IMG/VR virus record: IMGVR_UViG_3300047160_021165
Span: 589-64,588 of that record
DNA: 64,000 bases
From: a virus
Direction: 5' to 3' (one strand)
Shown here: positions 4,922 through 45,664 of the stretch, one piece after another
Numbering within the stretch: position 1 is the first letter of the stretch
Layout: each line of letters begins with the position of its first letter
Notes under the pieces: model-generated
What the model saw: only the letters and a program-made list of their open reading frames with translations
The model's database searches: none
What the model was told of the DNA's origin: nothing
Translations under genes and position numbers: made by a program

Positions 4922-4949
4922 TTATCGGCTAGGGTTCATCCAATCTTTA
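4922..4949 (-). promoter_or_regulatory. sigma28-like promoter TAAA(GATT)-N16-GCCGATAA
   Basis: Read directly; lies 30 nt upstream of the 4891 ATG. Confidence 0.65.
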
Positions 4950-5115
4950 ATTGTTCTAAAAATAGCTGAGAATTGGGCAGGTTACGCCAATGTCTAGTAT
5001 ATGATTTTTGACGTCTAAGTGCTTTGGATGTCTGAATAGCCTTGAGTTTTCTGCCTTTTTTGGCTCTCTTGGCTTTAGCTTTTGGACCGATTTTAGTATC
5101 TCTTCGTTTTCTCAT
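4936..5115 (-). CDS. Very basic small protein (59 aa)
   Basis: MRKRRDTKIGPKAKAKRAKKGRKLK...; 21 K/R against 2 D/E. GAGGG SD. Confidence 0.55.
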   Translation of the reverse strand: MRKRRDTKIGPKAKAKRAKKGRKLKAIQTSKALRRQKSYTRHWRNLPNSQLFLEQLKIG

Positions 5116-5134
5116 TATGCCCTCTAAATATGAA

Positions 5135-5572
5135 TTAAGCTTGCAAAAACAAGTCTCTTTCTGCATTTCTACGTCTTAAAATACCAGCGCTTACTACGCC
5201 TCCGGCTCTATCCCACTTTGGAAATTCGTCAGCTGCTCCAGCAAAATCTTGCTGATTCACTAACTTAAGCAAAGTGGATTTCTCGAAATTGCCTGGACCA
5301 AGATTATAGGTAAAGCTAACCATGGCTGCGAATTGATTATCGCTCACATCTACGGTAATAGCTCCATCTACTGCTGATTCAAACCGGGCCAAATCACCCC
5401 GTAGGAGGCTTTCAGCTGCAGCCTCATCTATGACTTGCCCATCAAATACATCGGACCCAGTATGGCCGTAACCTACTGTAAGTACGCCCACTTGATCATA
5501 ATAAGCAGTTAAGCGTAAGCCTTCGAAGGATTTGATTAAATCAATCCCAGCTTGGTTTGTTTGTCTAGACAT
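5135..5572 (-). CDS. Endolysin, GH24 phage lysozyme
   Basis: IKSFEGLRLTAYYDQVGVLTVGYGHTG carries the E-x8-D-x5-T catalytic triad; also FTYNLG and RRNAERDLF. Confidence 0.93.
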   Translation of the reverse strand: MSRQTNQAGIDLIKSFEGLRLTAYYDQVGVLTVGYGHTGSDVFDGQVIDEAAAESLLRGDLARFESAVDGAITVDVSDNQFAAMVSFTYNLGPGNFEKSTLLKLVNQQDFAGAADEFPKWDRAGGVVSAGILRRRNAERDLFLQA

Positions 5573-5576
5573 GATT

Positions 5577-6125
5577 TTAACCGTATAAATATAAAGTTCT
5601 TTTATCCCATACTCGGTTGTCGAAGTCTTTCAAAGATAAGTTCTCAATATGGAAAATCAGATCAGATGGAGTAACTGGAGTATTAGTTTCAGCAATGAGA
5701 TTAGGAAGTTGAACCAAAAATTGAGTGGAACTTAAGATTTGAGTGACTAAGTTACCGCCTATGGAATTATTGACAGTACTGAGAAATACTTTATCACCAA
5801 CTGATAGAAGTGTCAAATCCCCACCGATAGCTGTTACTGCAGCGTAACCGGGATAGGAGATCACATCTACGCTGATATTAGTGGCATTGGAAGTGAACCG
5901 ATTGAGGGCAGTCGTAGTGGCTATTATGTTGTAATAGACATCATATTGAATGAAGGTTATATACCATTTGGCTATGTCGGTTGGAGTATTATACTTGGCT
6001 TCCCCAATATAACTAGGCATGCCGTTGGTCAAATGATCTATTAAGGTAACGACGATAGGCTCACCCGTAGGGGAGCCATCGACTACCTGAATCTGACCTT
6101 TATACCGTTTTCCACCATCTGACAT
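5577..6125 (-). CDS. Hypothetical protein (182 aa)
   Basis: ORF in the unit containing the endolysin; no family recognised. Confidence 0.55.
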   Translation of the reverse strand: MSDGGKRYKGQIQVVDGSPTGEPIVVTLIDHLTNGMPSYIGEAKYNTPTDIAKWYITFIQYDVYYNIIATTTALNRFTSNATNISVDVISYPGYAAVTAIGGDLTLLSVGDKVFLSTVNNSIGGNLVTQILSSTQFLVQLPNLIAETNTPVTPSDLIFHIENLSLKDFDNRVWDKRTLYLYG

Positions 6126-6152
6126 ATTAGACCCTCTTATTGGCGCCTAATA

Positions 6153-6527
6153 TTAGGTACCATCATCTGTTACGACTTCAAGTCTGGCAGGAGCTGCAGA
6201 CATTACTAGGAATTCATCTGTGGCTACAACTAGATAGGTTCCGGCATCAAGCATAAGAGCTGGGGAAGTTGTAGAGCTAACCACGGTTACAGATGTATCT
6301 GGGTAGAATGCTAGATAAGTAGTAGCTGCTACTTTGATTCTCAGAACGTTGGCTATACCAACTAGAACGGGAGCTGCAGAGGGGTCAGCAGTAATTACGT
6401 CTCCGGGGATCAGAACTCCACCCATGACCAATTTAGCGCCAGCATTGAATATGTGTTCAACTTGGTTAAGAGTTTCTTGACCAATAGTAACTTTTCTACG
6501 AGCTTTTTTGAGGGCGATTAGATCCAT
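6153..6527 (-). CDS. Hypothetical beta-rich protein (124 aa)
   Basis: ORF with a clean operon fit. Confidence 0.55.
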   Translation of the reverse strand: MDLIALKKARRKVTIGQETLNQVEHIFNAGAKLVMGGVLIPGDVITADPSAAPVLVGIANVLRIKVAATTYLAFYPDTSVTVVSSTTSPALMLDAGTYLVVATDEFLVMSAAPARLEVVTDDGT

Positions 6528-6530
6528 AAT

Positions 6531-6788
6531 TTATAACCCCTTTAAGGTTCTGTGTATTTCTCTAAGTAAGTATTTATGTAAGTCCCTGAATTTCTTGACT
6601 TCTGAGCTCATGAATACTTTCTCTAAGTCTCTAGCTACTTCTTTCTCATCGAAAAAACGCATTAAAACTCGAGGCTTAGATCCAGGAGTTTCGTCTATTT
6701 TGCACTCTATAAATTTTAAGCCCTGCAACATTAAAAATGCTGCTAAATCAACATCATGAGTTGAGAACTCTTTGAGAGGCTTATTCAT
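6531..6788 (-). CDS. Small protein resembling DUF5659
   Basis: FSTHDVDLAAFLMLQG resembles the DUF5659 N-terminal motif (from memory, unverified). Confidence 0.5.
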   Translation of the reverse strand: MNKPLKEFSTHDVDLAAFLMLQGLKFIECKIDETPGSKPRVLMRFFDEKEVARDLEKVFMSSEVKKFRDLHKYLLREIHRTLKGL

Positions 6789-6829
6789 AACGGCTCGTAA
6801 TAGCTAAAAACTTCCTAAGTCCTTAAAAT

Positions 6830-6838
6830 ATTATAACA
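6830..6838 (-). promoter_or_regulatory. Extended -10 promoter TGTTATAAT
   Basis: 2 nt after the NRAMP stop; faces the unit containing the endolysin. Confidence 0.65.
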
Positions 6839-6840
6839 TA

Positions 6841-8121
6841 CTAGCCTGGAAAAAAGATCATCTGTATAATCAGGACTATGGAAAGAATACTCAGCAGGCC
6901 TATAATGCCCCAGTTCACTACGTTATTCCATTTTTTGTTTTGAAATTCAGGACTTATCAGTTTTTTATCTTGGAGAAGTAACTGCAAGAAGATCATAGAA
7001 GTGGGAAGTACCAATCCAGCGAAGATTTGAACTCCGATTATGATCGCCTGGAGTGGAATATGGGGTATAGAAACCACCAAGGCAGCAGCTAAAGTAGCCA
7101 GAATATAGACAAAGTAGAAGGATTTGCCGTCTTTGAAGCTTAGATTGAGACTGCCTGGCTTTTCCATAACTTCAGCATGTGCCCAGGAACTAGCCAAGGA
7201 TATCGCCATGGTACCCAAAATTGCTGAATTCGCGAATAGCAAAAGAAGCAGATTCTTCCAATATACTCCGATGGTTGCTCCTAGATCCCTGGCCATTTGA
7301 GCGGGATCTGAATAAGCTATTCCCTTGGCTTTTAGGAGAGCTCCAGCGTACATCATGCCTCCGGCAACCAGGATAGTGAAAACAGCTCCTATCATGGTAT
7401 CTAGCCTGGAATCGGCCAGGTTCTTAGCTTCTAGCTTTTTATCGACTATACAGCTTTGTTGGAAGAACAGTTGCCAAGGGGCTATGGTTGTTCCCACAAT
7501 GGCTATTATCATAAAAATTAGGTTGGAAAAGCTGCCACTATAGGAAAGTGCAGGAATTACAGCATTCTTTAGATCAGCCCCATTCAGACCGAACTTGTAA
7601 CTGAAAGCCAGCCAAGAAGCATCGCAAACGCATAGGAGTATTGCGATTTTTTCCCAGCTGAAGTAACTTCCGCTAAGAATAATGGCATTTAAAAAAAGAA
7701 CAGCGGGGATCATGACTGCCCAGGCTGGGAGTGATAGCGCCGATGCTATCATGGCTAAAGCTGCGAACTCAGTTAACAGAGTTAAGAAGTTCAGGATATG
7801 GAGATTGGTTATGGAATAACGGCCCCAGAACTTACCGAATTTCTCATAAATAAGAGCTGCATGGCCTTTCCCAGTGCTCAGGGCTAGGCGAATTACCATT
7901 TCTTGGGCTAGATAAGTTATAGGGAGTAATAGAAGGAGAAGCCAGAAAAGCTTGGTACCGTAAATGGCTCCAGCTTGGGTATAGGCGGAAACTGCTCCAG
8001 CATCGTTGTCAGCTTCCATAACGATTAATCCAGGCCCTAAAACCATTAAAAATGTAAGGATTCGTATTATTAATGGGTTTTCGATTATTCTCTTTTTGAG
8101 AGCGAGTATTCTGTTTGCCAT
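6841..8121 (-). CDS. NRAMP-family divalent metal transporter (NRAMP-related subgroup)
   Basis: About 11 TM segments. TM1 region GPGLIVMEADNDAG, AQEMVIRL, and TM6 region GTTIAPWQLFFQQS match the NRAMP-related pattern. Confidence 0.88.
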   Translation of the reverse strand: MANRILALKKRIIENPLIIRILTFLMVLGPGLIVMEADNDAGAVSAYTQAGAIYGTKLFWLLLLLLPITYLAQEMVIRLALSTGKGHAALIYEKFGKFWGRYSITNLHILNFLTLLTEFAALAMIASALSLPAWAVMIPAVLFLNAIILSGSYFSWEKIAILLCVCDASWLAFSYKFGLNGADLKNAVIPALSYSGSFSNLIFMIIAIVGTTIAPWQLFFQQSCIVDKKLEAKNLADSRLDTMIGAVFTILVAGGMMYAGALLKAKGIAYSDPAQMARDLGATIGVYWKNLLLLLFANSAILGTMAISLASSWAHAEVMEKPGSLNLSFKDGKSFYFVYILATLAAALVVSIPHIPLQAIIIGVQIFAGLVLPTSMIFLQLLLQDKKLISPEFQNKKWNNVVNWGIIGLLSILSIVLIIQMIFFPG

Positions 8122-8274
8122 AACAGACCTCCTTTTTACCTGAATTTTAAGTTATTTGATATAAATCCCTTTCATTTCCGCAAGATAAGAACCATTCTTA
8201 AACATTGGGAAATAAACGAAAAGTAACTACCAGAATTCTACCATTTTTGGTAGAAGTTCAGGCAGCTTAAGTGA

Positions 8275-8301
8275 CTATCGGTATTTTGGGGGAAATCTTT
8301 A
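8275..8301 (-). promoter_or_regulatory. sigma28-like promoter TAAA(GATT)-N15-ACCGATAG
   Basis: Intergenic, upstream of the NRAMP gene, exact 15-nt spacer. Confidence 0.65.
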
Positions 8302-8318
8302 GATTATTTGATAAGCAT

Positions 8319-8624
8319 CTAAGATAAGAACTCTTTTAGAAAGTCTTGAAATTCCTCGGAGCTTTTGATCTTTTCCATGCTTTCTTTATACAGAGTTTGG
8401 ACTTTGGAGTTAGATAGCCCTAAAAGGGTGGCTATCTGTTGTTGGGATAGAGGCTGCATCAATCCATTTGAATCTGATTTCCTGGCTAAGTAGGCCCAAA
8501 AACAATATCCATCTTCTGGACTATTAATATAACAATCCTTGAAATGGGAAAAATCCCCAGGTTTCCCTGGAGACTCTTCGTTGGCTAGAGGTAGACAAGA
8601 GTGATTAGTTAAGAAGTTCCGCAC
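8319..8624 (-). CDS. Small protein with a sigma70 region-4-like HTH
   Basis: PLSQQQIATLLGLSNSKVQTLYKESMEKIK resembles the region 4.2 HTH. Start codon uncertain (GTG overlapping the upstream gene). Confidence 0.5.
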   Translation of the reverse strand: MRNFLTNHSCLPLANEESPGKPGDFSHFKDCYINSPEDGYCFWAYLARKSDSNGLMQPLSQQQIATLLGLSNSKVQTLYKESMEKIKSSEEFQDFLKEFLS

Positions 8625-9642
8625 GAGCTTTCATATCCCCAGTGTGTTGTTTCACGAATTCTTGAAGTTTGGCTTGGACGAAATCCACTTGATCCATGGT
8701 TACGTATGACATTTTTTCTTGTAGAACTTCATTCAACTCAGCTTTATTGTTGGGATTAACTGATTTTCCGTTGATTGTCATTTCTACGATCGCACCGGTT
8801 ACCAGAGGGCAATTAGCTGTTGTAATTTTAGCATCAACATTGAAAATAAGGATTTGAATGTGTTTTTCTACTGTTGTGGAACCGGCTAAAGTCGCGTTAC
8901 ATTCTGCAGTTACTACTTGGTCAGCCAATCCCATACTAACAGCTTCTTTACCTGTCATCCAGAGTTCTTCTCGGATCAATTGGAAATATCTATCTTGAGT
9001 GAGTTTACCATTGGTGCGTGCAATCGTATGGGCATCCCCTTCAGCAATCATGCGTTTAGCATATTGAAGGCGAGATTCTAATTGACCTGGGAATTCACCC
9101 ATAAAGCCGCCTTTAGCTCGGTGGGACATCAAAGTGCCGCTGTCTACAATGTAGCGTGTTCCTAAAGCTTCGGCTGTTTGGAAGCCCATAGAAGCCGCGA
9201 ACAAAGTCAACGTATCTACTTGATGGTGAAGACCTTTTAGGTTTTCGATCATATTCAAACCAGCATCGATGGATCCACCAGGAGTATCAAGTACTAAAAC
9301 GATATGTTCCCCAGGAGGCAATTTAGCATCAAGTTCTCTGGCCTTCATCGAAACTACCGCAGTGGAAGCTTCAGTAACTTCAGAATTCAATAGAATTGTA
9401 TTATTAGCATCCAAAACAACATGTCCAGCTACTAAAGACTCTGGAGTTAGAGATGTCAGAGCAGGAGTTGGTTCTATAGCATTTACGGCTTGGGGAGCAG
9501 CTAATACTGGGGGAGCTGTGAATCTTGCATAAATCGTACCCGGATTTGCAGCCTCCACGCTAAGAGCAAGAGCCATAGTGCCAATGCTCACCAACCCCAG
9601 AACGGTCAAAATTCCAAAAATCAATTTTTTCAAAGTTGCCAT
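8605..9642 (-). CDS. ClpP/S49-like serine protease with N-terminal signal or TM anchor
   Basis: VLDTPGGSIDAG, FAASMG (Ser), LMSHRA (His) and ELWMTGKEAVSMGLAD; hydrophobic N-terminus. Confidence 0.8.
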   Translation of the reverse strand: MATLKKLIFGILTVLGLVSIGTMALALSVEAANPGTIYARFTAPPVLAAPQAVNAIEPTPALTSLTPESLVAGHVVLDANNTILLNSEVTEASTAVVSMKARELDAKLPPGEHIVLVLDTPGGSIDAGLNMIENLKGLHHQVDTLTLFAASMGFQTAEALGTRYIVDSGTLMSHRAKGGFMGEFPGQLESRLQYAKRMIAEGDAHTIARTNGKLTQDRYFQLIREELWMTGKEAVSMGLADQVVTAECNATLAGSTTVEKHIQILIFNVDAKITTANCPLVTGAIVEMTINGKSVNPNNKAELNEVLQEKMSYVTMDQVDFVQAKLQEFVKQHTGDMKARAELLN

Positions 9643-9734
9643 GAAGTTTACCCTCTTAGTTTAATTTACCTCTAGCATGATTAAAGTCTACCAGCTGGCC
9701 AGTTAATTGTCAAGCCTGGTATCGATGTTACTTA

Positions 9735-9761
9735 CTATCGGAGAAAAGCTTAATAACTTTA
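9735..9761 (-). promoter_or_regulatory. sigma28-like promoter TAAA(GTTA)-N15-TCCGATAG
   Basis: Intergenic, upstream of the anchored ClpP-like gene, exact 15-nt spacer. Confidence 0.65.
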
Positions 9762-9777
9762 ATCGATTCCATAAGCA

Positions 9778-10602
9778 TCATATTTCATTCCATTCTTTAG
9801 AGCATTTATCCCGGAATGGACAGAAGCTGCATTTATCGGGAGTTTTAGGGGGTAGTTGTTTATTAGCTATAAATTCATTAGCCTTTTGAATTTTTCTATT
9901 CAATTTTGAGATATTGGACTTAACATGGGATTCTTCCAGGGAAAAAACCTTAAGATCCGAGGTATCTTTGTTTATATAAATTACCTTAATGCCTCTGACT
10001 TTAATATCTTGGGATAGTTGTGGAATATGATTAAAATCTCCGGCCTTAATGTGTTCTTTCATGGCTTCGAGATAGATAGAAACTTGATCCAAATGTTCTG
10101 GCAGAGGCTCTTCTAAGCCAGTGAATTTAGTGGCTTTACAGGATTTGATTTCATAGATCCAGAGCTCGTTGTCTAGAATGGCTATATTATCTATAAAACC
10201 CTTGTTTATTCCCCACTTCTTTGAAGATATCGGGAATTGTGGATTGGGAGTTTTTCCATCTCTATCCAGAGGTATTTGGCCAGTAACTGGATCTAAATAA
10301 GGTACATGCTCCCCTAAGGCCTTTATCCACTCCATCACCATGGTTTCATAGTATTTACCGGTTTCGAAGATCTTGGCGCCTTTAGAATCTACAGGGATAT
10401 CTTTATCTACTCTGAAATATTGGTAATAAATCTTGCGATAGCATTTCGTGCCTATGGAGGAGGGGGAATGGCTTGGTTTGGGCTTGGTTTCGGAAGGCTT
10501 ATTATATTCTTTGACTAAGTGCCTATTGATCCTGGAGATTAAAGGATCTCGGGGATTAACCCTTGATTTTTCTAAGAGATCCTTTAATCGTTCTAGGTTC
10601 AT
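9778..10602 (-). CDS. Cas4-like PD-(D/E)XK exonuclease with Fe-S cysteines
   Basis: SPSSIGTKCYRKIYY, GFIDNI..YEIKS and C-terminal CSFCPFRDKC. Confidence 0.85.
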   Translation of the reverse strand: MNLERLKDLLEKSRVNPRDPLISRINRHLVKEYNKPSETKPKPSHSPSSIGTKCYRKIYYQYFRVDKDIPVDSKGAKIFETGKYYETMVMEWIKALGEHVPYLDPVTGQIPLDRDGKTPNPQFPISSKKWGINKGFIDNIAILDNELWIYEIKSCKATKFTGLEEPLPEHLDQVSIYLEAMKEHIKAGDFNHIPQLSQDIKVRGIKVIYINKDTSDLKVFSLEESHVKSNISKLNRKIQKANEFIANKQLPPKTPDKCSFCPFRDKCSKEWNEI

Positions 10603-11171
10603 ATCACTTTGTCCACAATTCCATATTCGAGGAGTTGTTCCGGGTCCCAGTATTTATCTGTGTGTTTGGCTTCTTCTAGATAGAATTTCTTGCTTTTCTT
10701 GGAAAAATCGGCCATCCACTGAGCCCAAAGTTCTTCCATCTTGTCTAGATTGTTCATTTCAGCTTTGATGTAGGAATGTCTACCTTCGAGTTCATAAGAG
10801 GCTTCATGGTGCATAAAACAAGCATAACGAGAAATTAGACGTTCATCTCCGCAGGCTAGAATCAGAGTGGCTGCTGACATTATTCGGCCGTAACCTTCGG
10901 TAATGATTTTACATTTGGTGCGCTTGATTCTTCCAACTATTGCCAAAGCAGCGAAAACATCTCCACCATCAGAAGATATTCGAATGGTTATAGCTGAGCG
11001 ATTATAGCTTTCCATTTCTGAAAGAGCAGCTTCTACAAGTGAAAATACGTCATCGTTAATATCGGAGTTAATTAGGATCGTACGTTCCTTGAAATTTACG
11101 CCTTTTTCGAAAAGATAGTCTAAATGAAGTTGAAATCGTTCAGTATCTTTTTCATTAGCCTTGATTATCAT
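10599..11171 (-). CDS. clpP: ClpP-like protease (peptidase S14)
   Basis: ISSDGGDVFAALAI, IMSAAT (Ser), FMHHEAS (His) and TDKYWDPEQLLEYGIVDKVI (Asp region). Confidence 0.88.
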   Translation of the reverse strand: MIIKANEKDTERFQLHLDYLFEKGVNFKERTILINSDINDDVFSLVEAALSEMESYNRSAITIRISSDGGDVFAALAIVGRIKRTKCKIITEGYGRIMSAATLILACGDERLISRYACFMHHEASYELEGRHSYIKAEMNNLDKMEELWAQWMADFSKKSKKFYLEEAKHTDKYWDPEQLLEYGIVDKVI

Positions 11172-11433: not shown

Positions 11434-11436
11434 AAA

Positions 11437-12000: not shown

Positions 12001-12012
12001 ATTACCCTCTAT

Positions 12013-12501: not shown

Positions 12502-12509
12502 AGACGAAT

Positions 12510-12557
12510 CCAAAAAAGAAAGTATTCAGATTAGTATGAGTCTACTTTCTTTTTTGG
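12510..12557. repeat. 15-bp perfect inverted repeat with 18-nt loop
   Basis: CCAAAAAAGAAAGTA (12510-12524) and TACTTTCTTTTTTGG (12543-12557), between the portal stop and the next gene. Confidence 0.85.
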
Positions 12558-12563
12558 TTAATG

Positions 12564-14417
12564 TCAAGCTGCGGGAGGGACGCCTTGTTCGGGCTTTTGA
12601 TTTTCTTGGGGATTTTGCATTTGTTGAGCAAGTTCTGGATTTTCTTCCATTTTTTCCTCATTCTTTTCTTGCATATAAGCTTGGAGGAAAATTTGGTTAA
12701 GAATGACATCTCCACCAGTGATTGGTTCTAGGCCGTCTTCGTCTCTGATCTCGTTTACGGTTTTCTTGAAAGTCACTTCTTGGGCTTGACGTTTGACTTT
12801 TTCTTCAGCATCTTCTTCGTGTAGACCAGTCCACTCTAGCATGTAGTCTGGATCTAGTTCATCTACGATATTTTTATTGACGTAAGATTGGATAAACACC
12901 ATCAAAGGCACTAAACCTTTGTCTTTGGAGTTATCCAGCTTTTCTTTGGTGTTATCGCCAGACATGCCAGCTCCACCAACGTCCTTCATTCCATATCCGA
13001 TTTCAGCTGGATCTATTTGGTAAATAGCACAGATCATTCGAATAAGATAGTTCAACCATAGGCCGAATTCCATCTCAGAGTGGTTCTGAGTCAGGGGTAT
13101 CCATTGAACTTCATCCATACCCGCCATGATTGGGGTTTGGAAGGAGTTACGATTACCCTTAACCATATGGTTCCAATGGCGTCTAAGCTCTTCTAATTTG
13201 GAACGGTTAAGGTTAGCTTTAACGTGAAGAATCCCTTTGGCCGAGAATCCTTGGGAAAAATAGGATCGGTTATAGAATTCTGTTTGAAGATGGCTAGTTA
13301 CCAAGGCTACAAGCAGCTCGATTTCAGATATAGCGTAACCATTGGCAAAAATGTCAGTAATGCGGTTACGCATACCGAAGGCTAATTCATCTTCTGTAAA
13401 GGCTCTTTGGATACGCCCGCGGATCAATTGAACGTATTTGTATTCGTTCTTTTCTAGACGCTCATCATTAAGGTCCAGAGTATCCCTACGTTCCATGCCT
13501 TCGATTTCATCCTCGTTATAGAGGATATCAGCACCCATGGCACTCAAGTCAGCAGTTTTATACTTGCTAAGAGCTGGAGAAGCGTAACGGACCGTAGAGG
13601 CATCTATAGGATAGAAGTGGTGGATGTTCATTCTATCGTTGAGTACAGCTGCTTCTTTTGGCACTTTCTCAGTAGCCACTTGGTCAAATACAAGGGAATC
13701 CCAGGTAATAGCTCTGAGGTAGCTATCGAAGTTCCAAACTTTATTGTCAAAAGGACGATCTTTGAGTTCACCACAATTACTGATGAATTCAGCTATGGCT
13801 CTCTTTTTGGCCTTGGTTCTTTTGTTCAGCTCAGCTCTAGCTTGTCTGGTTTTTTCTTCCTCAGTTAAGGGCTTTTCCTTTAATTGGGAATCATCAGCTG
13901 CATTTTCAAGATGTTGCATAAGGCTAGAATCAGCCGTCATTCCTTTACGGACTTCAGCTAGATCGTCGCTAAGAGCATCTTCCTTATCCTGAGCTCCAGA
14001 AGTAGCCGTAGTTTCTTCTTCTCCCTCAAGCCCAAATAGCTCTTCTTTGATCTTATCAAGGGCATCATCTGGGTGTTTTAGCTCGATTTTAAATCCAGGA
14101 TCCGTACCTTCTGGTCTATATTGGGAAAATGCGGCTACTCGGTTTTGGCGGGTCTTTAAAATAGCAGAAATTACAGAGGATTTCAGAGCTATTTGTTTTT
14201 GATATTCGTAACTTATGGCTGTGGGCTTCTCAAAAAAGCCTTGGGAACCCATATAATAGGTTCTATCCCGAGTAATAGCTTTACCGAAGTTAAAGTATTC
14301 TCCGTCTTCACCACTTCCTATAGAAGTTCTGGCTTTATAAAGTTGGGCATCCAACATGGCGGATCCAACATCCAGCATCTTCTTGAAAATATTGTCATTT
14401 TTAGGTTGATCAGCCAT
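12564..14417 (-). CDS. Portal protein
   Basis: YPIDASTVRYA, YVQLIRG, SYFSQGFSAKGILH, ICAIYQIDPAEIG and TVNEIR match the large-myovirus portal pattern; adjacent to terminase. Confidence 0.9.
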   Translation of the reverse strand: MADQPKNDNIFKKMLDVGSAMLDAQLYKARTSIGSGEDGEYFNFGKAITRDRTYYMGSQGFFEKPTAISYEYQKQIALKSSVISAILKTRQNRVAAFSQYRPEGTDPGFKIELKHPDDALDKIKEELFGLEGEEETTATSGAQDKEDALSDDLAEVRKGMTADSSLMQHLENAADDSQLKEKPLTEEEKTRQARAELNKRTKAKKRAIAEFISNCGELKDRPFDNKVWNFDSYLRAITWDSLVFDQVATEKVPKEAAVLNDRMNIHHFYPIDASTVRYASPALSKYKTADLSAMGADILYNEDEIEGMERRDTLDLNDERLEKNEYKYVQLIRGRIQRAFTEDELAFGMRNRITDIFANGYAISEIELLVALVTSHLQTEFYNRSYFSQGFSAKGILHVKANLNRSKLEELRRHWNHMVKGNRNSFQTPIMAGMDEVQWIPLTQNHSEMEFGLWLNYLIRMICAIYQIDPAEIGYGMKDVGGAGMSGDNTKEKLDNSKDKGLVPLMVFIQSYVNKNIVDELDPDYMLEWTGLHEEDAEEKVKRQAQEVTFKKTVNEIRDEDGLEPITGGDVILNQIFLQAYMQEKNEEKMEENPELAQQMQNPQENQKPEQGVPPAA

Positions 14418-14841: not shown

Positions 14842-14850
14842 ATTATATCA
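14842..14850 (-). promoter_or_regulatory. Extended -10 promoter TGATATAAT
   Basis: Just after the terL stop, facing the portal unit; no -35 hexamer at 17 bp. Confidence 0.65.
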
Positions 14851-28714: not shown

Positions 28715-28723
28715 ATTATATCA
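28715..28723 (-). promoter_or_regulatory. Extended -10 promoter TGATATAAT
   Basis: 2 nt after the dut stop, facing nrdJ-polA. Confidence 0.6.
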
Positions 28724-31894: not shown

Positions 31895-31921
31895 ATATCG
31901 GAACTCACAGTCGAGAACTAA
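31895..31921 (-). promoter_or_regulatory. sigma28-like promoter TTAG-N15-TCCGATAT (weaker match)
   Basis: At the gene boundary upstream of the SSB-primase unit. Confidence 0.45.
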
Positions 31922-36463: not shown

Positions 36464-36503
36464 GGAAGAAATCCTTTTTCAGGGTTTTTTCGTCGATAAC
36501 ATC

Positions 36504-36531
36504 TAATCGGCTACAAACTCGGAAAACTTTA
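36504..36531 (-). promoter_or_regulatory. sigma28-like promoter TAAA(GTTT)-N16-GCCGATTA
   Basis: 40 nt upstream of the 36463 ATG. Confidence 0.65.
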
Positions 36532-36758: not shown

Positions 36759-36787
36759 AGTATACGGCGAAAAATATTCTTTGTCAA
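36759..36787 (-). promoter_or_regulatory. Near-consensus sigma70 promoter TTGACA-N17-TATACT
   Basis: Read directly; the predicted start site falls in the ATCTATAGAT palindrome. Confidence 0.75.
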
Positions 36788-36863: not shown

Positions 36864-36890
36864 TTAAGTTAAACGGAAAAGTACCGATAA
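36864..36890 (+). promoter_or_regulatory. sigma28-like promoter TTAA(GTTA)-N15-ACCGATAA
   Basis: 37 nt upstream of the 36928 ATG. Confidence 0.6.
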
Positions 36891-36927
36891 GTTTTAAGTA
36901 AGCAAAAAATGCTTAGGAGGTCAAATC

Positions 36928-39067: not shown

Positions 39068-39482
39068 GTTGTCCGTTTCAGTTCCACAAAGCAATTCCAA
39101 AGTACTGATCCTGAAAGGATACAGCGAACAGCTTCCAAATCAGCAAGAGAATTTCTCACTAATGATGTATCGAGATTTTTGTAAAATAATCATTGACTTC
39201 GGCAAAGTCTACAATGTTAAAACCATTGGGTCTGAACTATTACTGGTTCAGGCAGAACATGCCGTAGTCGAAATAGAAATCTTACAGGGAGAATTGAATG
39301 AAAATTCCGGAAAAGTCTATGATTTTTTGAAGGCTAAAAACTCCAGAAAATCTAAGCAGAAGAAGTCCGAAGGTGTTTCACCAGCATCCAAGGAAGAACT
39401 CATTAAAATGGTGAAAGATATAGTCAAGGAGATGGATCAAGAGGTCGCAGACCCTCCGACTCTGAAACTAATCAAGGAGTAA
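39057..39482 (+). CDS. Hypothetical protein
   Basis: ORF coupled to the helicase. Confidence 0.55.
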   Translation: MMFKLSVSVPQSNSKVLILKGYSEQLPNQQENFSLMMYRDFCKIIIDFGKVYNVKTIGSELLLVQAEHAVVEIEILQGELNENSGKVYDFLKAKNSRKSKQKKSEGVSPASKEELIKMVKDIVKEMDQEVADPPTLKLIKE

Positions 39483-39484
39483 AA

Positions 39485-40072: not shown

Positions 40073-40110
40073 ATTAAGTAGGTTACTAGGAATAACCCTT
40101 TAATTTATTT
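40068..40110 (+). terminator. Long imperfect hairpin after the SLT gene
   Basis: AAATAAATTAA..GGTTA-loop-TAACC..TTAATTTATTT. Confidence 0.45.
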
Positions 40111-40127
40111 ATCTTTTAAAATATTCC

Positions 40128-40154
40128 TAAGGTTTTATGGTGAAACTCCGACAA
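40128..40154 (+). promoter_or_regulatory. sigma28-like promoter TAAG(GTTT)-N15-TCCGACAA
   Basis: Intergenic, 31 nt upstream of the 40186 ATG. Confidence 0.6.
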
Positions 40155-40185
40155 GTATATTGAAAGTAGCTTGGAGGAGCTAATC

Positions 40186-40395
40186 ATGGTTAAGAGTTAC
40201 AAAATAATCTACAAACAGATAACCCTATATAATATTGAATATTATGTGGGTGTTATCTTGGATGAAGAATCCAGAGTAGCTGTTTATACAACCAAAGCCT
40301 TGTCTGAAATCAGCATCAAACAAAGATTGCAGAACAAAATCAGATGGTTAGAATACCAAGAAAGAAAAAACAAAGGAGAAACATCATGGGAATAG
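40186..40395 (+). CDS. Hypothetical protein
   Basis: GGAGGAG SD; 69 aa. Confidence 0.55.
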   Translation: MVKSYKIIYKQITLYNIEYYVGVILDEESRVAVYTTKALSEISIKQRLQNKIRWLEYQERKNKGETSWE

Positions 40396-40707
40396 CTTTA
40401 TTAATAGTATCTTGCGGTTACGCCTTATGCTTATATAATCAGCATAAAAATCATGAAGATCTAAAACGTTGCATAAAGCAAATTAGCCGTAAATAGGTAA
40501 TTACAATGAGTAATAAAGTTAAATTTTCTAATCTATTAGAGCCTATAAAAAATAATGACTGAGTTTAGTAAGTTACTGTCTAATAAGATTAGTTCTTCTC
40601 TAATCCCAGATGCTAAGGGTGATTGGGAAGATTTTACCGAAGATGACTTATTAAAAGTATTATTAGACGAGGAACCCAAGGATAAATCAACCTTACACTA
40701 AGGAGAG

Positions 40708-41163
40708 ATGCTCATGGAATACCTTCCAATTTCTCAAAAAGAACTAAATTCTTTGATAGAAGAGCATGAACTTTGGATTAAATCTAATGGTAAAGCGGGA
40801 AAAAACTTAAATTTGGTTAAGCGGTCCCTGAATAACCTAAATATCACTGGGAATCTGGCCCATTCTAACTGGTTTGATCTGCAAATCACGGATATCATGA
40901 TTTCTGAGGCCGATTTAACAAGGTCGGTTTGGGAACATATAATCGGGGACCATATATTATCTAATGGTTCGAATTTGACAGGTTTAAAGGGCTATGATAT
41001 AAACTGTACTCAGTTGAAGTTTATGAGATCTATAATCCTAGATTTAGGTATCTATAGATCTTCCATAGATTCGATCACAACCATAGGGTGCGATATGCCT
41101 ACTAAACCCTTTGAAAAACTTGAACAAAATAAATACGTTGAATTTAAAGTGAAGGCTAAATAA
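40708..41163 (+). CDS. Degenerate pentapeptide-repeat-like protein
   Basis: The N-terminus LIEEHELWIKSNGKAGKNLNL matches the cap of pentapeptide-repeat proteins and is followed by eroded 5-residue periodicity. Confidence 0.5.
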   Translation: MLMEYLPISQKELNSLIEEHELWIKSNGKAGKNLNLVKRSLNNLNITGNLAHSNWFDLQITDIMISEADLTRSVWEHIIGDHILSNGSNLTGLKGYDINCTQLKFMRSIILDLGIYRSSIDSITTIGCDMPTKPFEKLEQNKYVEFKVKAK

Positions 41164-41480
41164 TGGAAAAAGATAGCAAATCCGTGATCTTAGAGATATC
41201 TTCTGATGGATATGCTCTTTACTATGCAGCTGATCATAAAAATATAGTGTCCATGACTATGTTGAAAGCCGCCCAAGGTAAAGCTTACGATGTGAATAGA
41301 ATGCTAGTAGCACTAGAAAATGCTGCTGATCACCTTAATAACTTTAAATTCTTGCTAGAAACTAATACGGTAACTTTGAAAGTAGTTCCATCCACTATGG
41401 CTTTGGAATTATTGAATAATGCTGCGAGATCTAAGGGTTTAAAACTCCTAAAAAAATTAGGTGTATTACTGCCACAATAA
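41163..41480 (+). CDS. Hypothetical protein
   Basis: TAATG-coupled ORF. Confidence 0.55.
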   Translation: MEKDSKSVILEISSDGYALYYAADHKNIVSMTMLKAAQGKAYDVNRMLVALENAADHLNNFKFLLETNTVTLKVVPSTMALELLNNAARSKGLKLLKKLGVLLPQ

Positions 41481-41489
41481 GGAGATAAA

Positions 41490-41873
41490 ATGGTCATTGA
41501 ATTAGAACATGCTTTTTCTGGGACTCACGTATTTGGTGAATTTTACGGAGTAGACGGCCATTTATTGAACGATTATGATCGTTTGGAAAGCGCCTTGTTG
41601 GCTGCAATCCAAAAGAGTGGGGCTACAGTCTGCAATATCCAAGGTAAGCTATTTTCCCCCAACGGGATAACTATCCTTGCTCTATTGGAAGAATCCCATG
41701 CAAGTTTGCATACTTACCCCGAAGAAGGAGCGGTATTCTTTGATGTATTTACCTGCGGGAATAAGTGTAATCCTTTAGAAGCGGTGGAAATGCTCAGGGC
41801 CGCATTCCGTCCAACTGAAGAAAAAGTCAAGGTAAATCAAAGGGGTAGAAAAAAAGCTAAAGTTTTAGAATAA
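41490..41873 (+). CDS. speD: S-adenosylmethionine decarboxylase proenzyme (class 1B)
   Basis: GTHV, FSPNG, LLEE|SHASLHTYPE self-cleavage motif and DVFTCG. Confidence 0.92.
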   Translation: MVIELEHAFSGTHVFGEFYGVDGHLLNDYDRLESALLAAIQKSGATVCNIQGKLFSPNGITILALLEESHASLHTYPEEGAVFFDVFTCGNKCNPLEAVEMLRAAFRPTEEKVKVNQRGRKKAKVLE

Positions 41874-41884
41874 AGCCCCGATAA
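41858..41884 (+). promoter_or_regulatory. sigma28-like promoter TAAA(GTTT)-N15-CCCGATAA
   Basis: Spans the speD stop; 41 nt upstream of the 41926 ATG. Confidence 0.7.
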
Positions 41885-41925
41885 GTATTTTGTGAATAAT
41901 AAATCTCTATGAGAGGAAAATTATC

Positions 41926-42099
41926 ATGAAAAATTACGATTGGATCAAAAAAGAACTAGAACAAATCCCAAGAACCCTTCATATCAACGTTGAAGAATTC
42001 GAAGACGAAGAAAACCCAGCTCTTTACCTAGACGAGGAAGAACTGGTGGATGATGATGAAGGCGTAGATTTCGCAGACGATTATGCCTTTGATGAGTAG
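41926..42099 (+). CDS. Very acidic small protein (57 aa; not in ORF track)
   Basis: GAGG SD; MKNYDWIKKELEQIPRTLHINVEEFEDEENPALYLDEEELVDDDEGVDFADDYAFDE has 22 D/E. Confidence 0.6.
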   Translation: MKNYDWIKKELEQIPRTLHINVEEFEDEENPALYLDEEELVDDDEGVDFADDYAFDE

Positions 42100-42104
42100 G
42101 ATAT

Positions 42105-42560
42105 ATGGACTTAAGAGATAAGAAAATAGATAAAACTTACGACATCCCTTATACTGCTGGATATAGTAAAGATGGCAAAACGATCTACATAGATCGAAAA
42201 ATGCCAGAATTCCTGACTTCCAGGTATTATGATAATCAGGTAATGGATGTTCATAAATATTTAGTCCATCACGAAGTAACCGAGAAAACATTTATGGATA
42301 CTTTTGGCTATAGCTATATAAAAGCTCATAGCCTGGCCTTGGCAGTAGAAGCAGCTTTAATGGCTCAGGATGGAGTCATGATAGATGAATATTACGGTCT
42401 ATCAGAAAGCTACTATATAGCCAATGAAAGATTAGATGCCATAAACTTAGTGCCCCTAGATTTGGATATAACCCCCTATCTAGATGACGGTAGAGAAGAT
42501 CTAGTGGGGCGTATTCTAGAATGCCAAGTAGCCCAAAGAAAAGGGCTGCAAACCCCTTAA
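42105..42560 (+). CDS. Conserved hypothetical protein with HExxE...H motif (possible Zn hydrolase)
   Basis: DIPYTAGYSKDGKTIYIDR, HHEVTEK and AHSLA. Confidence 0.55.
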   Translation: MDLRDKKIDKTYDIPYTAGYSKDGKTIYIDRKMPEFLTSRYYDNQVMDVHKYLVHHEVTEKTFMDTFGYSYIKAHSLALAVEAALMAQDGVMIDEYYGLSESYYIANERLDAINLVPLDLDITPYLDDGREDLVGRILECQVAQRKGLQTP

Positions 42561-42580
42561 TTTCCTATTAGGAGAAAATC

Positions 42581-43132
42581 ATGAAAAAGAAGTTTGAATT
42601 AGACCGAGTATATAAACCAGTAAACCCCAAATCTGAAGTCAGCTTTGCTGAAGTTGTTTATAAGCTTCCAGAAAAAGCTACCGGAATTGAAGGGCTTTTT
42701 ATAGCCAGAATCTATCTCAAATCAGGACAAACCCTATTAGCCCCTTATACTACCGATGGTATCCTAGTTTCCGATAGACCCATGTCTGATTTAGAGAAAA
42801 AAGGCTTGGCTTTGAGCACTGAAGAGTTCAACATAGCGGAAAGCAATAAAGCTATGACTCGAATTTTCCAGGAATATCAAGAAGATAAAAAACCCATATT
42901 TGAACATGAAATAGCTATCCATTATAAGAATAAATATCATTTTGAAGATGAAATTTCAATGGCTCCGGAATACATAGTCCCTTATGTTAAATTAGACGGT
43001 CAATTAGATAAATATGGGAAAAATTTGATAGCTCTATTGAAATTCCGGGGTAAAAAGGAAGTCAAGGTTCTTCTTTTCAATCCGGAAGAATTCTACAACT
43101 TTACTGAAACTCTTTGTAAATCAGAGATTTAA
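42581..43132 (+). CDS. Hypothetical protein
   Basis: AGGAG SD; 183 aa. Confidence 0.6.
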   Translation: MKKKFELDRVYKPVNPKSEVSFAEVVYKLPEKATGIEGLFIARIYLKSGQTLLAPYTTDGILVSDRPMSDLEKKGLALSTEEFNIAESNKAMTRIFQEYQEDKKPIFEHEIAIHYKNKYHFEDEISMAPEYIVPYVKLDGQLDKYGKNLIALLKFRGKKEVKVLLFNPEEFYNFTETLCKSEI

Positions 43133-43140
43133 GGCGTATC

Positions 43141-43553
43141 ATGAGTAAATTAGTTTCAACTTTAAAATTTTGGTGGAGTGTAGTGGTTTACTGCGCCGTC
43201 TGGCTATGGCTAGTTCCTCCACTTTTGTTCAAACTAGCCAAAGGATTGATAAAAGATCTTATTCTTTTCATCCAAAATGGCGGAAGGTTGAAATAATATG
43301 AATCTCGTTGTAAGCTATTTAATGTTTATAGGAATTATTTGTGGAAGCGTCATTTATGGCATCCATATAATAATAGAAAAAGAAAAAAACAATAAAGATG
43401 AGGATAAATAAGATGTTACAAGAACTTACATTCAAAACCGTGCTTAAATTGACACTTTACTTCTACATCGCCCAAGTTACTTTGTATGGAGCTGCTTTGT
43501 TGGTTATCCATTTGGCAGCTTTTGCTGCAGCTGCTTTAGGGTATGGTGGTTAA
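43141..43553 (+). CDS. Three consecutive micro membrane proteins (43141-43296, 43298-43411, 43413-43553)
   Basis: 51, 37 and 46 aa, each with one hydrophobic segment; stops and starts separated by 1 nt. Confidence 0.5.
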
Positions 43554-43554
43554 T

Positions 43555-43896
43555 ATGAAAAAGCTATTATTACTTGCTTTGATGGGAGGCTTGGGAGCTT
43601 GTACCGTGTCGGAGACGGTATCTTTGGGTGTTGGAGTGGATAGTCAACCCACGCAAACAACTAAACATATGTCCTTGGTTAAGCCCACCTACTATACCAT
43701 GCAAACCGGGTGCTTAGTTTGGGTTCCAAATCTGGAGCATTATCAAAATGTTGCAATTAAAACTTGCGCGGATAAAGGAATGACTCCAGTTGATGCAGGA
43801 ATTACCAATTACAGAGAATGTAAAGCTGATGCCTCTGGAACCCCACTCTATAGTTACACTGTGACTTTTTCTTGCCAACCAAAACAAGGAAAATAA
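43555..43896 (+). CDS. Lipoprotein with paired cysteines
   Basis: MKKLLLLALMGGLGA-C lipobox; four further Cys. Confidence 0.65.
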   Translation: MKKLLLLALMGGLGACTVSETVSLGVGVDSQPTQTTKHMSLVKPTYYTMQTGCLVWVPNLEHYQNVAIKTCADKGMTPVDAGITNYRECKADASGTPLYSYTVTFSCQPKQGK

Positions 43897-43899
43897 AAA

Positions 43900-44346
43900 A
43901 TGGCTAAACCTCTATATGTGTTGTTTGATGCTCAGAATCAGATCTTATTGGGACTAGCTGATAGCTTCGAAACAACCCTCAATATAGCCCATGAATACTG
44001 CGTTATTTGCGATGCAGATTTCGATGTTCTAGATTCTGACGATGGCAGATGGGTAGTTGAGATAGAAGGGGGCTATAAGTACTGGAAATTCAAACTCAAA
44101 AACGACCAGACCATGTTCATGATTTCTGCTGCTGAAATAAATAAGCCTCTATGGAACAAAGAACCGGCATACGATTATGGCCCCACATATGGGGATGATG
44201 GCACAGACGAAGAAGTTCTATTGCCGGAATGGCTAGGAACAGCTTCAACTGGAACCTACACAGTAGCTAATTTATTCTTTCCTGGTATGGGCATAGTAAA
44301 TAAAAGAGATCCAGAAGAAGAAATCCGTCCAGGTAGAGAACTTTAA
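43900..44346 (+). CDS. Hypothetical protein
   Basis: 148-aa ORF ending the plus block. Confidence 0.6.
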   Translation: MAKPLYVLFDAQNQILLGLADSFETTLNIAHEYCVICDADFDVLDSDDGRWVVEIEGGYKYWKFKLKNDQTMFMISAAEINKPLWNKEPAYDYGPTYGDDGTDEEVLLPEWLGTASTGTYTVANLFFPGMGIVNKRDPEEEIRPGREL

Positions 44347-44507
44347 CGATTTCTTCTCAATCTTTCTATTCTGGAACAAAATACTAGAAACTCAAGGGGC
44401 GTAACAGCCCCTGTTTTTATTGATGCCTCTTTTAAGGCCCTTAATGATGGTTCTAAAGAGCTTTCCACTAAAGCCCTTACTTCTGGTCTATCTTCGAACT
44501 TAACCAT
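44343..44507 (-). CDS. Small hypothetical protein (54 aa; not in ORF track)
   Basis: MVKFEDRPEVRALVESSLEP...; stop overlaps the convergent plus-strand stop. Confidence 0.35.
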   Translation of the reverse strand: MVKFEDRPEVRALVESSLEPSLRALKEASIKTGAVTPLEFLVFCSRIERLRRNR

Positions 44508-44645
44508 GGCTAAAACCCCTATTTTGAGGTTTATGGGAAGGTTGCCAACCCTATATAAACGAATTATACTCCCGCCTCAGAAATAGAAAGGGGCCGCTAA
44601 AAGCAACCCCCTGAATAACCCTATATATTTATTTAACCTTTAGTT

Positions 44646-45629
44646 TTAGTGAATTACCAGCTCATTGATAACCATTAACTCAAATCCCTTATTATCTCCA
44701 GGACCTGCAGTGTTTATACAGGGATTAGTATCTCCGGATCCATAAGTGGTTTCTGGAAGCCAAATGGAACAGTAGTTGGAGTTATTTGGTAAGTGATCTT
44801 GTGGATACCATTGAGTATTATGGTTTAATTCATCCATAGCTTCTTGGAAGTTCCCATCAGTATATTTGTGGTAAGCTGCTGAAAACAAAGGATTACCATG
44901 ATTCGAATTATAAATGGTAGTCAACACGTTTAATTCATCTTGGCTTATATAACCTCTTATATCCCCTTCTAGGAGGATATGCCATACGGTTAAATGACTT
45001 ATATATCCGGGGGTAGTATCCCAGCTAACTGGAAGTAAAGTCATGGCCTCCATATCAGGAACGCTACCCCCCATTCTCTGAATCATTAAAGCTAGTTCAG
45101 ACATTTCTGTGGAACTCAAAAGTAATTCTCCTGGAGTTCCAGTTCCCGTCATCAGCCAGTTATTGTTATACCAAGTATTATATATAGAAATCGCTAACTT
45201 GAGATCCTGGTGTTTCCAAATAAACCAATATAATCCCAGGATTTGATCTCTAGAAATCGTGGAACGACTATTACCCCATTGAGGTCCACAATCATGATTG
45301 GGCCTGCGGAACCATTGACCATTAGATTCAGCAGTTTGGATATTCACGTTAACTGCTGGATCTGCAGCACTGACTAAACCGGTCCAAAGCAGGGAGTCAC
45401 AAGTATCCGTAAATATAAACCCATTCTCGTCCATTTCTCCAGGAAGAGCTTGCTTATACAAGTCTGAGGTAGCCTGGAGATTTCCATAAGCCTCAATACT
45501 AACATGAGTAGCCACTTTAGCGTAAACTTTCTTAATTAAATCAACAACATAGTCTTGTCCACATCCTACGCCCTGAGTCAAGATTCCCAATAACAATAAA
45601 TATTTAATGATTTTAGATTTACTGAACAT
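44646..45629 (-). CDS. Putative lipoprotein of unknown function (327 aa)
   Basis: Lipobox-like TQGVG-C; GGAGG SD; helical body rich in W/Y. Confidence 0.6.
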   Translation of the reverse strand: MFSKSKIIKYLLLLGILTQGVGCGQDYVVDLIKKVYAKVATHVSIEAYGNLQATSDLYKQALPGEMDENGFIFTDTCDSLLWTGLVSAADPAVNVNIQTAESNGQWFRRPNHDCGPQWGNSRSTISRDQILGLYWFIWKHQDLKLAISIYNTWYNNNWLMTGTGTPGELLLSSTEMSELALMIQRMGGSVPDMEAMTLLPVSWDTTPGYISHLTVWHILLEGDIRGYISQDELNVLTTIYNSNHGNPLFSAAYHKYTDGNFQEAMDELNHNTQWYPQDHLPNNSNYCSIWLPETTYGSGDTNPCINTAGPGDNKGFELMVINELVIH

Positions 45630-45656
45630 AATGAACCCTCCAATGTTCTATTAATC

Positions 45657-45664
45657 TTATCGGA
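45657..45664 (-). promoter_or_regulatory. sigma28-like -10 element TCCGATAA (no clear -35)
   Basis: 27 nt upstream of the 45629 ATG, just downstream of a terminator. Confidence 0.35.

What the first reader, a model, noticed from the sequence alone, without database searches (positions are those of the whole stretch)
4922..45664. Phage non-structural genes appear wired to flagellar sigma28 (FliA)-type promoters
Seen: eight sites, each at an intergenic gap or gene boundary and facing the next ATG, share T(A/T)A(A/G)-N15/16-nCCGA(T/C)(A/T)(A/G/T). They are 4922-4949, 8275-8301, 9735-9761, 31895-31921 and 36504-36531 on minus, and 36864-36890, 40128-40154 and 41858-41884 on plus; a -10-only site lies at 45657. 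Seven continue G(A/T)T after the -35 tetramer. They head the bfd-ung, NRAMP, anchored ClpP, SSB-primase, CYTH-groEL and right-hand early units; none was found before a structural gene. Knowledge: the sigma28/FliA/SigD consensus is TAAAGTTT-N11-GCCGATAA. Inference: the phage hijacks the host motility sigma for early/middle transcription, so expression is tied to a motile state. This would suit a host whose free-swimming phase is FliA-driven, as reported for Bdellovibrio attack phase. Alternatively, a sigma28-like factor is encoded elsewhere in the phage genome.
Basis: partly seen in the sequence, partly recalled or inferred. Interest (0 to 1): 0.9.

Follow-up and report, generated by a model that had tools for sequence, protein, structure and literature searches.

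The report
Flagellar-sigma promoters in a soil phage
A 109-kb uncultivated soil phage drives its small accessory and other non-structural gene blocks from about 15 promoters that match the bacterial flagellar sigma-28 consensus, and comparison with related phages suggests the host's own motility sigma factor reads them, a transcription strategy I could not find described for phages.

Summary
Seven of the eight listed sites are strong members of one motif family, TAAAGTTT-N11/12-(A/G)CCGATAAGT. Site 31895-31921 is weak, and 45657 has a good -10 element only.

- **Enrichment.** The strict pattern occurs 7 times in the window against 0.19 in shuffles. The whole 108,914-bp phage has 15 sites against 0.1-0.5 expected.
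- **Placement.** All 15 lie outside ORFs of at least 75 aa (two overlap a 3' end), and each faces a same-strand start, for 10 of them 23-53 nt away.
- **Control.** A matrix built from the phage sites ranks the E. coli tar, fliD and motA promoters as its top three hits in 49 kb.
- **Phage sigma.** The phage encodes one sigma factor outside the window. It is RpoD-like, not FliA-like, and sits behind a canonical TTGACA-N17 promoter.
- **Relatives.** A syntenic relative with the same kind of sigma has no such sites. A complete, more distant relative with no sigma gene has nine. An unrelated phage sharing only two proteins has six or seven.

Structural genes instead use -35-less TGnTATAAT promoters.

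Host, timing and the link to motility remain inference. The scan had noted similar promoters on other phage DNA.

The parts
4920..4949 (-). Sigma-28-type promoter, TAAAGATT-N12-GCCGATAAGC. It lies 28 nt before a 56-aa ORF (4721-4891), which is followed by the Bfd-like 55-aa ORF, small membrane ORFs and a UDG-family gene.
   Evidence: score 24.2
8273..8301 (-). Sigma-28-type promoter, TAAAGATT-N11-ACCGATAGTC, 151 nt before the NRAMP gene (6841-8121). A TGGTAGAAT extended -10-like box lies in between, at 8235-8243.
   Evidence: score 21.7
9733..9761 (-). Sigma-28-type promoter, TAAAGTTA-N11-TCCGATAGTA, before the ClpP-like gene (8605-9642). It stands in tandem with a canonical TTGACA-N17-TAGACT promoter at 9685-9713.
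   Evidence: score 19.8
36502..36531 (-). Sigma-28-type promoter, TAAAGTTT-N12-GCCGATTAGA, 38 nt before the 147-aa gene that heads the GroEL unit. A TTGACA-N17-TATACT promoter lies further upstream at 36759-36787.
   Evidence: score 22.7. In relative G001 the orthologous GroEL unit also has such a site.
36864..36892 (+). Sigma-28-type promoter, TTAAGTTA-N11-ACCGATAAGT, 35 nt before the first rightward gene. The unit it heads includes the 492-aa helicase.
   Evidence: score 23.7
40128..40156 (+). Sigma-28-type promoter, TAAGGTTT-N11-TCCGACAAGT, 29 nt before a small-gene cassette.
   Evidence: score 23.1
41858..41886 (+). Sigma-28-type promoter, TAAAGTTT-N11-CCCGATAAGT. It overlaps the end of the upstream gene and lies 39 nt before the next start.
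   Evidence: score 27.1
31895..31921 (-). Not counted as a member.
45657..45664 (-). A -10-like TCCGATAA (half-score 12.8) with no -35 box at the proper distance. Status uncertain.
9685..9713 (-). Canonical sigma-70-type promoter, TTGACA-N17-TAGACT. It belongs to a class of four intergenic sites. One of these lies 49 nt before the phage sigma gene, outside the window at genome 99045-99073.
   Evidence: The same arrangement precedes the sigma gene in relatives L005 and L006.
12539..12567 (-). Canonical TTGACA-N17-TAGACT promoter, intergenic.
36759..36787 (-). Canonical TTGACA-N17-TATACT promoter in the divergent region.
14842..14850 (-). A -35-less extended -10 promoter, TGATATAAT, before the 126-aa gene and portal. 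It is one of six such sites in the window (also 2898, 6830, 28715, 54303, 62370). All are on the minus strand, and most precede structural units.

Best explanation
The sites are promoters read by the host's flagellar-type sigma factor (sigma-28, FliA/SigD family) bound to host core RNA polymerase.

The phage has three promoter classes:
- **Class A.** A few canonical sigma-70 promoters (TTGACA-N17-TAnnnT). One of them turns on the phage's own RpoD-like sigma gene.
- **Class B.** -35-less TGnTATAAT promoters before the morphogenesis units. These are probably served by the phage sigma or by host sigma-70.
- **Class C.** About 15 sigma-28-type promoters, 7 of them in the window. They head the NRAMP, ClpP-like, GroEL and helicase units and most cassettes of small lineage-specific genes, including every plus-strand unit.

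What is shown: the motif, its enrichment, placement and orientation; its identity to the sigma-28 consensus; the absence of a phage FliA homologue; and the same promoters in phages that have no sigma gene.

For: 1. Motif statistics and placement are as given in the observation check.

2. The consensus TAAAGTTT-N11-(A/G)CCGATAA equals the textbook sigma-28 consensus in both boxes and in spacing. A matrix built only from phage sites was run over 49 kb of E. coli K-12. Its three best hits are the promoters of tar, fliD and motA, and the fliC promoter ranks fifth.

3. The complete phage genome has a single sigma-70-family gene.
- Its best family matches are RpoD models.
- It aligns to RpoD/SigA structures across regions 2-4, with the group-1 signature YATWW...PVHM and region 4.2 reading TRENVRQ.

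4. Relative G002 is syntenic, with 55 of 158 proteins shared. Its sigma has the same WWIDQxxGR region 2.4. It has no sigma-28-type site at all and uses TTGACA/TTTACA-type promoters for non-structural genes.

5. Relative G003 has terminal repeats, is rated 100% complete and shares 36 proteins. It has nine sites with the same extended consensus. It has no sigma-70-family gene by Pfam r2, by the FliA model or by a profile built from this phage's sigma clade.

6. G004 shares only a reductase and a helicase with this phage, yet has six or seven strong sites. No shared phage protein can therefore be the common reader.

7. Region 4.2 of the sigma differs among the phages that carry the motif: TRENVRQ, TRQRVSQ, SKERVQQ and TKERIRQ. 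The -35 box they would have to read stays constant.

8. Tandem sigma-70-type and sigma-28-type promoters stand before the ClpP-like and GroEL units, which fits two different holoenzymes.
Against: - There are no transcript data. No RNA run was listed, so neither start sites nor sigma dependence are shown.
- The host is unknown, so it is not shown that it is flagellated or has FliA.
- The phage sigma clade has unusual residues at the -12-recognition positions (R436D and T440G in E. coli numbering), so an altered specificity is not excluded by sequence alone.
- G003 is only a distant relative, and G004 and G006 are incomplete records that could hide a factor.
- G006 has about 20 sites and also a very divergent sigma-like ORF.
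- The conserved 'GT' after CCGATAA is not part of the E. coli consensus.
Confidence: 0.7

Rival explanations
1. The phage's own RpoD-like sigma (genome 97749-98996) has evolved to read the TAAAGTTT/CCGATAA promoters. On this reading they are a phage-autonomous middle class switched on after host sigma-70 expresses the sigma gene.
For: - The sigma gene has a canonical sigma-70 promoter, and a sigma-28-type site follows directly after its stop codon.
- The clade carries conserved changes at the positions that read -12 in sigma-70 (WWIDQALGR).
- G001's region 4.2 reads RVSQ. From memory, this resembles FliA.
Against: - G002 and L012 have the same region 2.4 but no such promoters.
- G003 has the promoters and no sigma gene.
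- Region 4.2 is not conserved among phages that carry the motif. In this phage it keeps the four sigma-70 base-contact residues R584, E585, R588 and Q589.
- The sigma scores far higher on RpoD models than on the FliA model: 275 against 85 bits.
Confidence: 0.12
2. An unrecognised phage factor reads the motif, or redirects host polymerase to it, in the manner of T4 MotA/AsiA or gp55. It could be a very divergent sigma, an appropriator, or the stand-alone region-4-like HTH protein at 8319-8624.
For: - Many phage ORFs have no recognisable family.
- A 101-aa region-4-like HTH is conserved in G000-G003.
- G006 has a barely recognisable sigma-like ORF.
Against: - The HTH protein is also present in G002, which lacks the motif.
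- G004 shares only two enzymes with this phage yet uses the same promoter.
- An unrelated factor arriving by chance at the full sigma-28 consensus in both boxes and in spacing is very unlikely.
Confidence: 0.1
3. The motif is not a promoter. It would instead be a binding site for a repressor or replication protein, or a repeat spread by recombination of gene cassettes.
For: - Some sites share spacer bases, for example ...GCTAGCAAT at genome 90956 and 94594, which hints at cassette duplication.
- In G001 one -10 box forms half of a terminator-like hairpin.
Against: - The motif is two-part with fixed spacing and strict orientation towards a start 23-53 nt away.
- The spacers are variable.
- Sites recur at non-homologous positions in phages of unrelated lineages.
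- The phage matrix cross-recognises genuine E. coli sigma-28 promoters.
Confidence: 0.04

Closest known systems
Class 3 flagellar promoters of E. coli and Salmonella (sigma-28/FliA: tar, fliC, fliD, motA), and the FliA-type attack-phase promoters of Bdellovibrio bacteriovorus (TTAAG-N16-CCGATA in 92 of 140 mapped promoters; PMC3627812)
   Same: The -35 box TAAAGTTT, the 11-nt spacer and the -10 box GCCGATAA are the same. The phage-derived matrix ranks tar, fliD and motA first in 49 kb of E. coli DNA. As in Bdellovibrio, the motif drives many non-flagellar genes.
   Different: The promoters lie in a lytic-type phage genome, before phage accessory, chaperone, transporter and helicase genes. The -10 box is extended by a conserved G(T/A). 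No experimental link to sigma-28 exists here.
Phage programmes built on sigma factors: T4 (host sigma-70 early, MotA/AsiA middle, gp55 late), SPO1 (gp28, gp33/34) and phiEco32 (gp36 sigma with gp79; PMC12276001, PMC8948821)
   Same: Several promoter classes divide the genome into gene sets. A phage-encoded sigma is expressed from a host sigma-70 promoter. -35-less promoters precede the structural genes.
   Different: In those systems every non-sigma-70 class is read by a phage-encoded sigma or co-factor. Here one large class matches a host alternative sigma, and it persists in a relative with no sigma gene.
Phage-encoded RpoD-like sigma factors of large phages, as annotated in Microcystis phage MaAM05 and Acinetobacter phage MD-2021a
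   Same: The phage sigma has regions 1.2, 2, 3 and 4 and is about 40-44% identical to these and to bacterial RpoD.
   Different: It belongs to a separate clade of about 400-440 aa, found so far only on metagenomic contigs. That clade has conserved R436D and T440G changes.

Membership tests
sigma-28 (FliA/SigD/WhiG)-dependent promoter | -35 element TAAA(GTTT) | tested here: met
   Among the 12 strict sites, 6 read TAAAGTTT. The other 6 differ from it at one position, or at two in the case of TTAAGTTA.
sigma-28 (FliA/SigD/WhiG)-dependent promoter | -10 element (G)CCGATAA | tested here: met
   nCCGATAA is present in 7 of the 12 strict sites. The others differ at one or two positions: CCGATAG twice, CCGACAA, CCGATAT and CCGATTA.
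sigma-28 (FliA/SigD/WhiG)-dependent promoter | Spacer of 11 nt between the 8-mers (15 between TAAA and GCCGATAA) | tested here: met
   The spacer is 11 nt in 9 and 12 nt in 6 of the 15 sites scoring 18 or more.
sigma-28 (FliA/SigD/WhiG)-dependent promoter | Resemblance to experimentally defined sigma-28 promoters | tested here: met
   In E. coli K-12 1,960,000-2,009,000 the phage matrix ranks the sites upstream of tar (21.1), fliD (16.6) and motA (15.8) as hits 1-3, and fliC (10.5) as hit 5. That these four are FliA-dependent is established knowledge.
sigma-28 (FliA/SigD/WhiG)-dependent promoter | Transcription start about 6-10 nt downstream of the -10 box, and dependence on sigma-28 holoenzyme | not testable with these tools
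   No RNA run was listed for the window. The host is unknown.
Phage-encoded FliA/WhiG-type sigma | A protein reaching the FliA_WhiG model (TIGR02479) cut-off of 189.6 bits | tested here: not met
   The only hit in the complete genome is the RpoD-like sigma, at 85.1 bits. No FlgM-like protein was found either.
Group-1/RpoD-like sigma (the phage sigma, outside the window) | Regions 1.2, 2, 3 and 4 with the YATWW and PVHM motifs | tested here: met
   Pfam PF00140, PF04542, PF04539 and PF04545 all match. The best NCBIfam match is RpoD at 275 bits, below the equivalog cut-off because the N-terminal half is missing. The protein aligns to RpoD/SigA structures.
T4-type middle promoter (sigma appropriation by MotA/AsiA) | A sigma-70-type -10 box (TAnnnT) with a replaced -35 box | tested here: not met
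   The -10 box is CCGATAA, not TAnnnT.

The most novel reading that the evidence does not exclude
Wiring early or accessory genes to the host's flagellar sigma-28 may be a widespread, unrecognised phage strategy. Within this phage family it would have replaced sigma-70-type promoters (G002-like state versus G000, G001 and G003). It would also have arisen independently in unrelated tailed phages. Part of the infection programme would then be gated by whether the host is motile, with FlgM exported and sigma-28 free, as expected for phages that meet swimming cells.
Probability: 0.45. Interest if true: 0.8.

Novelty: new variant of a known kind. Interest (0 to 1): 0.7.

Why it matters
Phage transcription programmes are described as host sigma-70 first, followed by phage-made factors. 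A large promoter class addressed to a host alternative sigma would tie phage gene expression to a particular host physiological state, namely motility. That would bear on flagellotropic infection, on phage-host range and on the choice of hosts for cultivation.

The consensus is so well conserved that the prediction can be tested in E. coli or Salmonella with existing fliA and flgM mutants, without the natural host. The family also offers a natural comparison. G002 has a phage sigma and no such promoters. G003 has the promoters and no phage sigma. G000 and G001 have both.

Tried and rejected
**Host identification failed.**
- There are no tRNA genes in G000, G001 or G002.
- The sample is a soil metagenome.
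- The nearest NRAMP homologues are 52-57% identical and spread over many phyla.
- The Bdellovibrio suggestion can therefore be neither supported nor rejected. Its published motif, TTAAG-N16-CCGATA, is compatible but not specific.

**Searches that gave nothing.**
- INPHARED phages hold no near-identical DNA.
- A single-protein scan of IMG/VR with the sigma found nothing. The alignment-based scan did work.
- No RNA runs were listed.

**Ideas considered and dropped.**
- The R436D/T440G changes in the sigma as an explanation for CCGATAA recognition. G002 and L012 share these changes and lack the motif.
- The region-4-like HTH protein as the determinant. It is also present in G002.

**Literature.** Six full-text searches found no paper describing sets of phage genes under sigma-28 promoters. 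The library does not cover most subscription journals.


Full report
**Setting.** The window is bases 589-64588 of a 108,914-bp IMG/VR virus record with 97-bp direct terminal repeats, rated complete. It is about 41% G+C and comes from soil metagenomes. It is a contractile-tailed phage.
- Genes found inside the window: portal, large terminase, SbcC-like nuclease, DNA polymerase, ribonucleotide reductase, DnaB-like helicase, GroEL, a second helicase, tail fibre, baseplate, NRAMP, two ClpP-family proteins, a T4-type lysozyme and a UDG-family protein.
- Outside the window lie the tail sheath, major head protein and head protease.
- INPHARED holds no close relative.

**The observation.** All listed sites read as stated.
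- Over the whole genome the strict pattern finds 12 sites.
- A matrix built from those 12 finds 15 distinct sites at score 18 or more, against 0.11 in 100 shuffles.
- All 15 lie outside ORFs of at least 75 aa (88% of the DNA), two of them overlapping an upstream 3' end. Each faces a same-strand start.
- Three of the 15 were not used for training.
- The consensus is TAAAGTTT-N11(12)-(A/G)CCGATAAGT.
- Site 31895-31921 scores 6.0 and should be dropped. 45657 is a -10 box without a -35 box.

**Is it a sigma-28-type promoter?** The consensus equals the textbook TAAAGTTT-N11-GCCGATAA. As a control I scanned 49 kb of E. coli K-12 around the che/mot/fli genes with the phage matrix. The three best hits lie directly upstream of tar, fliD and motA. 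The fliC promoter is fifth.

**Three promoter classes.** Following a lead from another note on this genome, I checked two further patterns.
- TGNTATAAT occurs 11 times. Ten are intergenic, all on the minus strand, and most precede morphogenesis units: portal, baseplate, tail, sheath and the protease-capsid unit. One precedes the reductase.
- Canonical TTGACA-N17-TAnnnT occurs at four intergenic places. One lies 49 nt before the phage sigma gene. Two stand in tandem with sigma-28-type sites, before the ClpP-like gene and before the GroEL unit.
- The sigma-28-type class heads every plus-strand unit and the cassettes of small genes at 87-98 kb.

**The phage sigma.**
- One sigma-70-family gene exists, at genome 97749-98996 on the minus strand, encoding 415 aa.
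- It is RpoD-like. RpoD models score about 275 bits and the FliA model 85 bits, against a FliA cut-off of 189.6.
- It aligns with RpoD/SigA structures through regions 2-4. The base-contact residues of region 4.2 are kept (TRENVRQ against TRERIRQ). Region 2.4 carries two unusual changes (WWIDQALGR).
- No FlgM-like protein was found.

**Relatives.** The sigma defines a clade of proteins of about 400-440 aa on contigs of up to 120 kb.
- In two such contigs (L005, L006) the sigma gene again has a TTGACA-N17 promoter. TGnTATAAT sites follow the structural direction, and a sigma-28-type site heads a block of small genes.
- G001 (64 of 158 proteins shared) has about 14 sigma-28-type sites.
- G002 (55 shared, syntenic, sigma with the same region 2.4 and a canonical region 4.2) has none. 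It uses TTGACA/TTTACA-N17-TAnAAT for non-structural genes and TGnTATAAT for structural ones.
Of these, 31 hold two or more strong sites and one holds nine in 11 kb.
- G003 came from that scan. It is 117,954 bp with terminal repeats, rated 100% complete, and shares 36 proteins with this phage, including a 73% identical reductase. It has nine sites with the same extended consensus. It has no sigma-70-family gene by three independent searches.
- G004 shares only two enzymes with this phage and has six or seven strong sites and no sigma. G006 has about 20 sites and only a barely recognisable sigma-like ORF.
- In the relatives the sites mostly precede small genes with no homologue in this phage.

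**Reading.**
- The motif persists where the phage sigma is absent (G003).
- It is absent where an equivalent sigma is present (G002).
- It is shared by phages with no common candidate factor (G004).
- Region 4.2 of the sigma varies among carriers while the -35 box does not.

The common reader is therefore most likely cellular, and the only known cellular factor with this specificity is sigma-28. The phage sigma more plausibly serves the TGnTATAAT class or replaces sigma-70, but I did not test this.

**Not established.** Timing (early or middle), the link to motility and the host itself are all open. Every attempt to identify the host failed. No RNA data were listed.

**Novelty.** Six full-text searches found no report of phage gene sets under sigma-28 promoters. 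This scan had already noted sigma-28-type promoters on other phage DNA, such as e1-3035394. The phenomenon therefore recurs within the scan and is not unique to this window.

Noticed in passing
window 2898-2906, 6830-6838, 14842-14850, 28715-28723, 54303-54311, 62370-62378 (all minus strand): TGnTATAAT(T) boxes with no -35 element sit directly before structural units, and one before the reductase. Genome-wide, 10 of the 11 exact matches are intergenic and all are on the minus strand. The raw count is near what base composition predicts, so only placement and orientation are significant. G001 has 15 and G002 has 19 such boxes. G003, which lacks a sigma gene, has 3.
   Followed up: partly
L001:970-2217 (genome 97749-98996, minus strand), outside the window: The phage sigma belongs to a clade of about 400-440 aa known only from metagenomic contigs. 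In this clade R436D and T440G (E. coli sigma-70 numbering, the positions that read -12) are nearly invariant. Its gene is preceded by TTGACA-N17-TAnnnT in three phages.
   Followed up: partly
window 8319-8624 (minus strand): A stand-alone 101-aa protein has a weak sigma region-4-like helix-turn-helix. It is conserved in G001, G002 and G003, always near the ClpP-like or head-protease genes, and is present whether or not the phage has sigma-28-type promoters.
   Followed up: partly
window 8605-9642 and 10599-11171 (minus strand): Two separate ClpP-family proteins lie downstream of the portal. Neither is the head maturation protease, which lies elsewhere (genome 84753-85643, phrog_1028).
   Followed up: no
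G001:C1:44622-44680 (plus strand): Here the -10 box TCCGATAAG pairs with CTTATCGGA 9 nt downstream, followed by a T-run. The same bases could therefore act as a promoter or as half of a terminator hairpin. This is also the one site that precedes homologues of probable virion genes.
   Followed up: no
window 8235-8243 (minus strand): A TGGTAGAAT extended -10-like box lies between the sigma-28-type site and the NRAMP start. The long NRAMP leader may therefore hold a second promoter.
   Followed up: no
L191, L131, L139, L141 (IMG/VR stretches): Other viral contigs of 29-38% G+C hold 6-9 strong sigma-28-type sites within 9-14 kb. Their gene content and relatedness were not examined.
   Followed up: no
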